From the IMG/VR virus record IMGVR_UViG_3300035698_022074, positions 1-64,000 of that record: a DNA stretch of 64,000 bases; one strand, 5' to 3'. The DNA is from a virus. Every line of letters begins with the position of its first letter. Position 1 is the stretch's first letter. Of this stretch, positions 10,888 through 11,268 are shown piece after piece. The position numbers and the translations under genes are program-made. The notes beneath the pieces were generated by a model, which saw nothing but the letters and a program-made list of their open reading frames with translations, searched no databases and was not told the origin of the DNA.

Positions 10888-10950
10888 ATGGTTGGTATTT
10901 CAATCGCACTCATTGTAATTGTAATCGTTATGGGTTTGGCAGCTGCCTAA
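10888..10950 (+). CDS. 20-aa hydrophobic peptide MVGISIALIVIVIVMGLAAA (first segment of a 127-codon frame interrupted by two TAA)
   Basis: RBS gagagag then ATG. Single predicted transmembrane helix. TAA stop at 10948. Confidence 0.3.
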   Translation: MVGISIALIVIVIVMGLAAA

Positions 10951-10980
10951 TCCAATCTAATGCTCCATGTAGGCACCTAA

Positions 10981-11268
10981 TCTGCTTTTGTACTGCAGCA
11001 TGCTCGTTTCGATACGGGATGGAGCTCCATCTATAGTCATTTTCGTACTTTACGTGATGAAGCTAACAAAGCAAAGTTACATCTAAGGAAGTGTGAGGAT
11101 GAAGGTATTGATGATACTACAGGAGCTAAGGCTTTTTTGGAGCTTCCAGTGGTTCAAAATCTAGAAGGTACGAAAGAGACAATGGAAAATCTGGCATTTC
11201 AAGTAACAATGAGACTCGCACGTTTGGAAGTCCTGGAGTACAAAGATAACAATTCGACACATCAGTAA
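10981..11268 (+). pseudogene. 95-codon open frame without any ATG/GTG/TTG start, in frame with the 10888 ORF through TAA codons at 10948 and 10978
   Basis: Frame arithmetic: ATG at 10888 + 3x126 = TAA at 11266. The sequence is not low-complexity (…RDEANKAKLHLRKCEDEGIDDTTGAKAFLELPVVQNLEGTKETMENLAFQ…). Confidence 0.35.

What the first reader, a model, noticed from the sequence alone, without database searches (positions are those of the whole stretch)
10888..11268. 127-codon frame with RBS and ATG interrupted by two in-frame UAA codons; downstream 95 codons have no start
ATG at 10888 follows RBS gagagag and encodes a 20-aa transmembrane peptide ending at TAA. Nine codons later comes a second TAA. 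Then 95 non-repetitive sense codons run to TAA at 11266, exactly in frame (10888 + 378). This is either a recently inactivated gene or a site of programmed read-through. It lies in the same tRNA island as the other recoding candidates.
Basis: seen in the sequence. Interest (0 to 1): 0.5.

Follow-up and report, generated by a model that had tools for sequence, protein, structure and literature searches.

The report
Decayed small gene between phage tRNAs
The interrupted 127-codon frame is real, but it is most likely the remnant of a small orphan membrane-protein gene broken by two strong stop codons in a jumbo phage's tRNA island, not a site of programmed read-through.

Summary
The coordinates are correct: ATG 10888, TAA at 10948 and 10978, 95 sense codons, TAA at 11266. 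The frame lies in a 555-nt spacer between tRNA genes of a jumbo-phage-like genome that otherwise uses the standard code.

Two details are wrong. An in-frame TTG at 11137, with a TAAGG Shine-Dalgarno, gives a 43-aa ORF. The 'RBS' before ATG 10888 matches the Shine-Dalgarno consensus over only 3 nt.

The frame looks like coding sequence. The 95 codons show gene-like codon usage and three-base periodicity, and the 20-codon ORF is the most hydrophobic small ATG ORF in the window.

- **No homologue:** none turned up in about 1.8 billion representative proteins or in three contig collections.
- **Relatives:** the only ones are about 99% identical strains. They keep a stop at both positions, TAA and TAG.
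- **Substitutions:** the two haplotypes differ here at about the neutral rate (pN ≈ pS).
- **Termination signals:** both stops are TAA-T, a strong context. No tRNA has a UUA anticodon in a normal loop, and no RNA structure flanks the stops.

Best reading: a recently inactivated orphan gene, confidence about 0.5. Read-through is unsupported. Interest is low.

More interesting things lie nearby: an RF1-like gene with a prfB-style +1 frameshift site on UAG, and a PTH2 gene with UAG at codon 3 next to an amber-suppressor tRNA.

The parts
10783..10857 (+). tRNA-Asp (GTC), the upstream boundary of the spacer
   Evidence: ARAGORN; Rfam tRNA 48 bits
10858..10887 (+). A-rich leader (cttttaacaaaaaaacaaagagagagaaaa). 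It is purine-rich but matches the Shine-Dalgarno consensus over only 3 nt. One A of the A-run (aligned at 10866) is missing in the other haplotype.
10888..10950 (+). ATG-started 20-codon ORF ending in TAA-T. It encodes MVGISIALIVIVIVMGLAAA, a single hydrophobic helix. It is either the N-terminal anchor of the former gene or a micropeptide that is still translated.
   Evidence: Codon score 0.65 and GRAVY 2.8 are higher than for every other small ATG ORF compared. The one substitution between haplotypes (10914) is synonymous.
10951..10980 (+). Nine sense codons (SNLMLHVGT) with an in-frame ATG at 10960, then the second stop. The stop is TAA-T here and TAG-T in the other three contigs.
   Evidence: The codon score is not coding-like in this stretch.
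10981..11268 (+). 95 sense codons plus TAA. Coding-like but an orphan, with no ATG or GTG. Predicted to form three helices.
   Evidence: Codon score 0.251; periodicity; no homologue; AlphaFold2 single sequence pLDDT 68, helices at 2-40, 45-53 and 61-93; 3 nonsynonymous and 1 synonymous difference between haplotypes
11137..11268 (+). In-frame TTG-started 43-aa ORF inside the 95 codons. TAAGG at 11127-11131 lies 5 nt upstream, so this part might still be translated.
   Evidence: Both substitutions inside it are nonsynonymous (V>I, Y>H).
11335..11406 (+). Degenerate tRNA-like sequence. ARAGORN calls it Gly-tcc only at a relaxed threshold. It suggests gene decay in the same spacer.
   Evidence: Rfam 17.9 bits, E 0.95; ARAGORN -ps90
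11413..11488 (+). Second tRNA-Asp (GTC), the downstream boundary

Best explanation
The region is the remnant of a small orphan gene of about 126 codons. The gene encoded a protein with an N-terminal hydrophobic helix followed by a helical domain of about 100 residues. It lay between tRNA genes in a jumbo phage's tRNA island. Two nonsense codons, at codons 21 and 31, now cut it just after the hydrophobic helix. Ribosomes starting at ATG 10888 stop at the first TAA-T and make at most a 20-residue hydrophobic peptide. The 95 downstream codons are no longer translated as part of that protein and drift neutrally.

Shown: the anatomy, the coding-like composition, the fixation of both stops in two haplotypes, and the neutral-like substitution pattern.

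Inferred: that the three pieces were once a single gene, and that the downstream part is now silent.
For: - The frame and its stops are exact.
- The 95 codons have gene-like codon usage. They sit at the 11th percentile of true genes, and only 0.2-3.5% of random open frames score as high. Base composition at each codon position matches genes in this phase only.
- The 20-codon ORF is the most hydrophobic of the 345 small ATG ORFs in the window and outscores all 194 minus-strand small ORFs on codon usage.
- Four assemblies from different samples form two haplotypes. Both carry stops at both positions.
- Six of the 11 substitutions in 2.3 kb fall within these 381 nt, a divergence of 1.6%. In the 95 codons pN is 0.013 and pS 0.016. 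Neighbouring genes pooled give pN 0.0037 and pS 0.0089. That points to relaxed constraint.
- The JGI gene caller called nothing here.
- Decay is visible elsewhere in the island: a degenerate tRNA at 11335-11406, a 1-nt indel between haplotypes in ORF 12969-13202, and a tRNA chimera in the other haplotype.
- Outside two special cases, the window uses the standard code with no in-frame stops in coding-like stretches.
Against: - No intact homologue was found anywhere, so 'pseudogene' lacks its usual proof.
- The substitution evidence rests on six differences in a single pairwise comparison.
- The coding signal is uneven. It is high at 10888-10977 and 11038-11247 and near zero at 10948-11097. So the two ends may never have been one gene.
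- Two nonsense codons with no frameshift is somewhat unusual for random decay.
- A TTG with a good Shine-Dalgarno at 11137 could keep a 43-aa product alive.
- The same island holds real recoding candidates that involve UAG.
Confidence: 0.5

Rival explanations
1. There are two independent small genes, not one broken gene. The first is a functional 20-residue hydrophobic micropeptide (10888-10950) whose TAA is its true stop. The second is a 43-residue protein started at TTG 11137, or a slightly longer one from a near-cognate start such as ATT 11107. The sequence between them is spacer.
For: - The coding signal is bimodal, with a non-coding-like gap at 10948-11097.
- The 20-codon ORF is an extreme outlier in hydrophobicity and codon score, and its only substitution is synonymous.
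- TTG 11137 has TAAGG five nt upstream.
- From my own knowledge: very short hydrophobic peptides, such as the 18-19-aa Ibs toxins, are real gene products in bacteria.
Against: - The 43-aa part carries two nonsynonymous and no synonymous differences.
- The first 52 of the 95 codons also score as coding-like overall (0.297).
- The Shine-Dalgarno before ATG 10888 is weak.
- No homologue exists for either product.
- The peptide has no charged flanking residues.
Confidence: 0.2
2. The region is non-coding spacer of the tRNA precursor transcript. The open frame, the hydrophobic mini-ORF and their shared phase are chance.
For: - Open stretches of at least 95 codons are common in sequence of this composition: 0.76 per kb over six frames.
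- There is no homologue, no gene call and neutral-like divergence.
- The first-stage reader picked the oddest-looking spot in 64 kb, so selection bias applies.
Against: - The codon-usage score is reached by only 0.2-3.5% of random open frames.
- Phase-specific base composition matches genes.
- The mini-ORF ranks first of 345 for hydrophobicity and above all 194 compared small ORFs for codon score.
- Among all long coding-like open stretches on the + strand, only this one and PTH2 lack an early start.
Confidence: 0.15
3. This is programmed recoding, so that a longer protein is made. Three routes are possible:
1. Read-through of both stops from ATG 10888.
2. An 'amber-gated' ORF, seen in the sister haplotype as ATG 10960, five codons, TAG, then 95 codons. 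It would be read by the phage tRNA-CUA, echoing the PTH2 gene's ATG-TCT-TAG.
3. A 36-nt translational bypass from GCC (10945) to GCT (10984).
For: - The window carries an amber-suppressor tRNA at 14939-15015.
- A PTH2 gene has homology that starts right after an early in-frame TAG, with no other start.
- An RF1-like gene has a prfB-like frameshift site on TAG.
- In three of four contigs the second stop is TAG.
- Ala codons flank the 36-nt segment that holds both stops.
Against: - The first stop is TAA in all contigs, and in this window both are TAA, which tRNA-CUA cannot read.
- Both are followed by T, and +4U reduces read-through (PMC5289835 abstract).
- No tRNA has UUA in a normal loop.
- The haplotype with TAG has a chimeric tRNA-CUA that lacks an acceptor stem.
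- There is no stimulatory RNA structure; z-scores are -0.04 to -0.78.
- ATG 10960 has no Shine-Dalgarno.
- There is no sign of purifying selection.
- No in-frame TAA occurs inside any other coding-like stretch.
- Known phage stop-codon recoding involves TAG and TGA (bioRxiv 10.1101/2021.08.26.457843).
Confidence: 0.07

Closest known systems
Nonsense-disrupted pseudogenes and decaying orphan (ORFan) genes in phage accessory regions
   Same: - A coding-like frame is kept.
- Premature stops are fixed in the population.
- The substitution pattern is near neutral.
- The location is a fast-changing accessory region (a tRNA island) that shows other decay, such as a degenerate tRNA and indels.
   Different: - No intact parent or homologue is known, so its status as a pseudogene is inferred from composition alone.
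- There are two nonsense codons but no frameshift.
Stop-codon recoding in phages (TAG or TGA reassignment with suppressor tRNAs and release factors; Borges et al., bioRxiv 10.1101/2021.08.26.457843)
   Same: The same genome segment carries a suppressor tRNA (CUA), a release-factor homologue and at least one gene with an early in-frame TAG.
   Different: - The stops here are TAA, which is not a recoded codon in that work.
- The window's genes are intact under the standard code.
- No matching tRNA is present.
Programmed read-through of a leaky stop (for example the UGA of the Qbeta coat/A1 protein; from my own knowledge)
   Same: An ORF continues in frame past a stop codon.
   Different: - There are two stops rather than one.
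- Both are UAA-U, the least leaky type of context.
- There is no conserved downstream constraint and no stimulatory structure.
Translational bypass of phage T4 gene 60 (from my own knowledge)
   Same: A stop follows directly after a possible take-off codon (GCC-TAA), and a synonymous Ala codon (GCT) lies 36 nt downstream, past both stops.
   Different: - The take-off and landing codons are not identical.
- No stable take-off hairpin is predicted.
- The gap is 36 nt rather than 50.
- An Ala codon within three codons after the second stop is expected by chance about 10% of the time.
Very short hydrophobic peptides such as the Ibs and Ldr type I toxins (from my own knowledge)
   Same: A 20-residue, entirely hydrophobic ATG-started ORF.
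   Different: - No antisense RNA or conserved family was detected.
- There are no charged or polar flanks.
- It is seen only in near-identical strains.

Membership tests
Programmed stop-codon read-through or recoding | The stop lies in a leaky context, or a stimulatory RNA structure follows it | tested here: not met
   Both stops are TAA followed by T, and +4U reduces read-through (PMC5289835 abstract). Folding z-scores around the stops are -0.04 to -0.78, and -0.12 for the whole spacer.
Programmed stop-codon read-through or recoding | A cognate suppressor tRNA exists for the codon concerned | tested here: not met
   About 45 tRNA or tRNA-like genes were found. One has CUA, which reads UAG only, and none has UUA in a 7-nt loop. 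The odd tRNA at 15020-15100 has a 10-nt loop that ARAGORN reads as 'ttta', which would pair with UAAA, not UAAU. tRNAs encoded outside the window or by the host could not be checked.
Programmed stop-codon read-through or recoding | The downstream extension is under purifying selection, and the stop is conserved in diverged relatives | tested here: inconclusive
   Only one other haplotype exists, about 99% identical. It has 3 nonsynonymous and 1 synonymous change in the 95 codons, giving pN/pS of about 0.8. No diverged relatives were found.
Genome-wide alternative code (TAG, TGA or TAA as a sense codon) | Many genes are fragmented under the standard code and repaired under the alternative code | tested here: not met
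   Dense + strand ORFs appear under the standard code. The only four same-frame coding-like pairs across a stop each have their own start and Shine-Dalgarno. Stop usage among 41 long ORFs is TAA 17, TGA 17, TAG 7.
Pseudogene (inactivated protein-coding gene) | A residual coding signature remains in the disrupted frame | tested here: met
   The codon score is 0.251 against a random-open-frame mean of 0.00-0.07. Positional base composition matches genes.
Pseudogene (inactivated protein-coding gene) | The disrupting mutations are real and fixed, and evolution is neutral | tested here: met
   The stops appear in four assemblies. Divergence is 1.6%, against a synonymous divergence of 0.9% in neighbours, and pN is about equal to pS. 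The numbers are small.
Pseudogene (inactivated protein-coding gene) | An intact homologue or parent gene exists elsewhere | tested here: not met
   - No Pfam or PHROGs family matched.
- tblastn against phage records found nothing.
- Searches of 5.8 billion protein clusters and 1.84 billion representatives gave one hit, a spurious repeat protein.
- There is no paralogue in the window.
T4 gene 60-type translational bypass | Matched take-off and landing codons flank the gap, with a stop right after take-off | tested here: inconclusive
   GCC-TAA lies at 10945-10950 and GCT at 10984-10986. The two are synonymous, not identical, and this is expected by chance about 10% of the time.
T4 gene 60-type translational bypass | A stable hairpin forms at the take-off site | tested here: not met
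   Only a 5-6 bp stem with a loop of about 20 nt is predicted, at -5.5 to -9.8 kcal/mol, no better than shuffled sequence.
Small hydrophobic micropeptide gene | A short ATG ORF encodes one membrane-spanning helix and has a translation start signal | tested here: inconclusive
   The hydrophobic helix is clear (GRAVY 2.8). The Shine-Dalgarno is weak (3 nt), the leader is A-rich, and conservation cannot be assessed.

The most novel reading that the evidence does not exclude
The interrupted frame could belong to a stop-codon-gated expression system in this phage's 'translation island'. Several small genes would be kept silent by an early stop codon and switched on only when the phage's own suppressor tRNA and modified RF1-like factor change termination. 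Candidates are PTH2 with ATG-TCT-TAG, and this frame, which in the sister haplotype reads ATG 10960, five codons, TAG, then 95 codons. In this window, TAA at 10978 would then be either a knock-out allele or a codon decoded by the unusual expanded-loop tRNA at 15020-15100.
Probability: 0.06. Interest if true: 0.7.

Novelty: new member of a known kind. Interest (0 to 1): 0.15.

Why it matters
By itself it matters little. It is one more decaying orphan ORF in a phage accessory region, and it shows that an 'in-frame stops plus long open frame' pattern in a tRNA island should not be taken as recoding without a matching tRNA, a suitable stop context and conservation.

Its value is as a contrast. The same island contains far better recoding candidates, all involving UAG rather than UAA: the RF1-like gene with a frameshift site on UAG, and the PTH2 gene with UAG at codon 3 next to tRNA-CUA. 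If the unlikely gated-expression reading were true, this would be a new way for a phage to time small-gene expression through control of termination.

Tried and rejected
- **Homology searches with the 95-aa translation.** I tried Pfam and PHROGs, tblastn against 50,697 phage records, the word-indexed 5.8-billion-cluster search and full HMMER against 1.84 billion representatives. The single hit, P0004, is a 4413-aa repeat adhesin. Ten weak repeat matches add up to E 1.2e-5, and I rejected it as spurious.
- **Contig scans with the translated 95 aa.** I scanned viral, metagenome and genome contigs. Only one near-identical contig (L008) turned up.
- **Synteny through neighbouring genes.**
  - PP2C relatives (L001-L003, 35-39% identity) have no tRNA island upstream and no match.
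  - The 91-aa neighbour's 72% homologue (L007) has different neighbours and no match.
  - The 96-aa neighbour has no homologue other than itself.
- **Structured RNA in the spacer.** Rfam gave only noise (snoR9, E 1.6). The folding z-score is -0.12.
- **Promoter and terminator scan.** Nothing exceeded the shuffled controls.
- **Frameshift from the out-of-frame ATG 11000 ORF.** That frame is not coding-like (-0.05).
- **Paralogues in the window.** None found.
- **Bypass hairpin.** Not supported.
- **Fold search.** The AlphaFold model is a generic three-helix arrangement (pLDDT 68). I judged a fold search on it uninformative and did not run one.

Full report
**What is there.** The window reads as part of a jumbo-phage genome.
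- Nearly all long ORFs are on the + strand and tightly packed under the standard code.
- It holds about 45 tRNA or tRNA-like genes and a tmRNA.
- One neighbouring small ORF (the 91-aa ORF) has distant relatives in 340-385 kb phages such as GAP32, CBB and XacN1.
- The finding lies in a 555-nt spacer between tRNA-Asp 10783-10857 and tRNA-Asp 11413-11488. A degenerate tRNA-like sequence sits at 11335-11406.

**Checking the observation.** The sequence is as described. ATG 10888 opens 20 codons (MVGISIALIVIVIVMGLAAA). TAA follows at 10948, then nine codons, then TAA at 10978. After that come 95 sense codons and TAA at 11266.

Two details need correcting.
- An in-frame TTG at 11137 gives a 43-aa ORF, with TAAGG five nt upstream. 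An in-frame ATG also lies at 10960.
- The purine-rich run before ATG 10888 matches the Shine-Dalgarno consensus over only 3 nt. Ten of 40 gene starts checked in the window are equally weak.

**Is it more than chance?** Length alone is not. Sequence simulated from the island's composition gives 0.76 open stretches of at least 95 codons per kb over six frames.

Content is.
- I trained a codon-usage score on 41 long ORFs of the window. It gives 0.251 for the 95 codons.
- True gene segments of that length average 0.38 ± 0.09, so the candidate sits at their 11th percentile. Off-frame segments average -0.19 and -0.11, and 0.4% reach the candidate's value.
- Random open frames of the same length average 0.00-0.07, and 0.2-3.5% reach it.
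- Base composition at the three codon positions matches real genes in this phase and no other.
- The 20-codon ORF scores 0.65. None of the 194 small ATG ORFs on the minus strand reaches that. Its GRAVY of 2.8 exceeds that of all 345 small ATG ORFs in the window, whose maximum is 2.07.
- Among all coding-like open stretches of at least 80 codons on the + strand, only two lack an early start codon: this one and the PTH2 gene described below.
- The signal is uneven. It is high at 10888-10977 and 11038-11247 and about zero at 10948-11097.

**Homologues.** None were found.
- Pfam and PHROGs gave nothing, nor did tblastn against 50,697 phage records or the 5.8-billion-cluster search.
- Full HMMER against 1.84 billion representatives returned one protein, a 4413-aa repeat adhesin. 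Ten weak matches to identical repeats add up to E 1.2e-5, and I treat it as spurious.
- Scanning viral, metagenome and genome contigs with the translated 95 aa found only one contig, 97% identical at protein level.
- There is no paralogue in the window.
- AlphaFold2 on the single sequence gives a moderate-confidence three-helix model (pLDDT 68). That is protein-like but not diagnostic.

**Relatives.**
- Three other contigs from other samples carry the region at about 99.4% identity: Ga0136555_1000047, Ga0399990_059146 and Ga0306866_1000041.
- Apart from one base in the upstream tRNA-Asp (10825), they are identical to each other here. In effect there are two haplotypes.
- Both keep TAA at 10948. 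At 10978 the window has TAA and the others have TAG.
- Six of the 11 substitutions in a 2.3-kb stretch fall inside the 381-nt frame, a divergence of 1.6%.
  - In the 20-codon ORF the one change is synonymous.
  - In the 95 codons there are three nonsynonymous changes (Y>C, V>I, Y>H) and one synonymous change, giving pN 0.013 and pS 0.016.
  - Fourteen neighbouring genes pooled give pN 0.0037 and pS 0.0089.
- This looks like neutral drift, but the numbers are small and come from one pairwise comparison.
- More distant relatives could not be found through the neighbouring genes.

**Evidence against read-through.**
- Both stops are TAA followed by T, and +4U reduces read-through in bacteria (PMC5289835 abstract).
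- TAA ends 17 of the 41 long ORFs. General TAA suppression would therefore be costly.
- No tRNA has UUA in a normal anticodon loop, and the CUA tRNA reads only UAG.
- There is no RNA structure around the stops (z -0.04 to -0.78) or in the spacer (z -0.12). Promoter- and terminator-like sites do not exceed the shuffled controls.
- No other coding-like stretch in the window runs through an in-frame stop without its own start and Shine-Dalgarno.
- Known phage recoding concerns TAG and TGA.

One variant deserves mention. In the sister haplotype the arrangement is ATG 10960, five codons, TAG, then 95 codons. This resembles the PTH2 gene's ATG-TCT-TAG. However, ATG 10960 has no Shine-Dalgarno. That haplotype's tRNA-CUA is a chimera without an acceptor stem. 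And in this window the codon is TAA.

**Conclusion on the finding.**
- **Most likely (about 0.5):** the remnant of a small orphan gene for a membrane-anchored helical protein, cut by two nonsense codons. At most the 20-residue peptide is still made.
- **Two separate small genes (about 0.2):** the 20-aa peptide and the 43-aa TTG ORF.
- **Chance, non-coding spacer (about 0.15).**
- **Programmed recoding (about 0.07).**

The finding is ordinary and scores low.

**Side observations in the same island.** These are more interesting than the finding.

1. *The release-factor gene at 13209-13887 is split between two frames.*
   - Shifting +1 at TTT-TAG-C restores one continuous PCRF match (positions 100-194, 77.7 bits) followed by the RF-1 domain.
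   - GGAGG lies exactly 3 nt upstream of TTT. This is the same geometry as the E. coli prfB site (AGGGGG-TAT-CTT-TGA-C, from my own knowledge). The four T's allow perfect re-pairing of tRNA-Phe in the +1 frame.
   - The protein is RF1-like: 126 bits to RF1 structures against about 78 to RF2. It lacks domain 1 and has PPN where RF1 has PxT.
   - The closest phage homologue, in the 485-kb record LR745208, has a frameshift at the same protein position with the classical GGAGGGGT-CTT-TGA-C.
   - A survey of 8,164 bacterial genomes never found TAG in the prfB motif and found no programmed frameshift in prfA (PMC12421855).
2. *A PTH2 peptidyl-tRNA hydrolase gene at 15120-15464 begins ATG-TCT-TAG.* AAGGA lies 7 nt upstream of the ATG. 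Pfam homology starts at residue 9, and the first canonical start after the TAG is 84 codons downstream of it. The gene lies about 100 nt downstream of the amber-suppressor tRNA, with one more tRNA between them.

Noticed in passing
window 13209-13887 (shift site 13308-13323): An RF1-like release-factor gene is split between two frames. A +1 shift at GGAGG-TCA-TTT-TAG-C restores one continuous PCRF plus RF-1 protein. The geometry matches the prfB autoregulatory frameshift, but on UAG and in an RF1-type protein: 126 bits to RF1 against about 78 to RF2, PPN in place of PxT, and no domain 1. The homologue in uncultured phage LR745208 (L009) shifts at the same protein position with GGAGGGGT-CTT-TGA-C. 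PMC12421855 reports no TAG in the prfB motif in 8,164 genomes and no programmed frameshift in prfA. The site is identical in the other haplotype. This is potentially a new kind of release-factor autoregulation.
   Followed up: partly
window 15120-15464: A PTH2-type peptidyl-tRNA hydrolase gene begins ATG-TCT-TAG, with AAGGA 7 nt upstream of the ATG. Pfam PTH2 homology (E 2.5e-12) begins at residue 9, and the first canonical start after the TAG is 84 codons downstream of it. This suggests expression depends on amber suppression. The ATG-TCT-TAG is conserved in the other haplotype.
   Followed up: partly
window 14858-15100: A cluster of three tRNAs. The first is an odd Lys-UUU-like tRNA with a poor T-arm (14858-14930). 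The second is an amber suppressor with anticodon CUA and a C-C mismatch at positions 31-39 (14939-15015). The third has a 10-nt anticodon loop, GUAUUUAUAU (15020-15100). ARAGORN reads the third either as a 4-base anticodon 'ttta' or as Ile-tat with a 3-nt intron.
   Followed up: partly
L004 9354-9440 (equivalent to window 14939-15100): In contig Ga0136555_1000047 the CUA tRNA and the expanded-loop tRNA are fused through their shared GGTTCAAATCC, a 74-nt deletion. The resulting chimera has no acceptor stem: ARAGORN finds nothing and Rfam gives only a partial match of 29.4 bits. It is either a real deletion or an assembly artefact.
   Followed up: partly
window 24603-24695: A long tRNA-like gene, 31 bits in Rfam. 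ARAGORN at a relaxed threshold calls it with a 4-base anticodon 'gtag'.
   Followed up: no
window 3979-6666: An 895-aa ORF whose product hits the eukaryotic major vault protein domains MVP_shoulder and, faintly, Vault_3. It is also the most divergent gene between the two haplotypes, with 16 nonsynonymous changes, 6 synonymous changes and 13 indel positions.
   Followed up: no
window 30901-31268: A phage-encoded tmRNA with tag peptide ANNNSHFQTALAA, 119.8 bits. With the roughly 45 tRNAs, the RF1-like gene and PTH2, it makes this segment a dense 'translation island'.
   Followed up: no
window 12969-13202: A 77-aa ORF directly upstream of the RF1-like gene, ending in TAG 6 nt before the RF gene's ATG. 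It has no PCRF homology and carries a 1-nt indel between haplotypes at 13133. It is probably not a conserved coding sequence, and may be what remains of RF domain 1.
   Followed up: partly
window 11335-11406: A degenerate tRNA-like sequence in the same spacer as the finding. Rfam gives 17.9 bits (E 0.95), and ARAGORN calls Gly-tcc only at a relaxed threshold. There is one substitution between haplotypes, at 11350.
   Followed up: partly
window 10945-10954 and 10975-10984: Both in-frame stops share the 7-nt context CCTAATC. Given the two TAA codons, the chance that the other four bases match is about 1 in 256, judged after the fact. No function is apparent.
   Followed up: no
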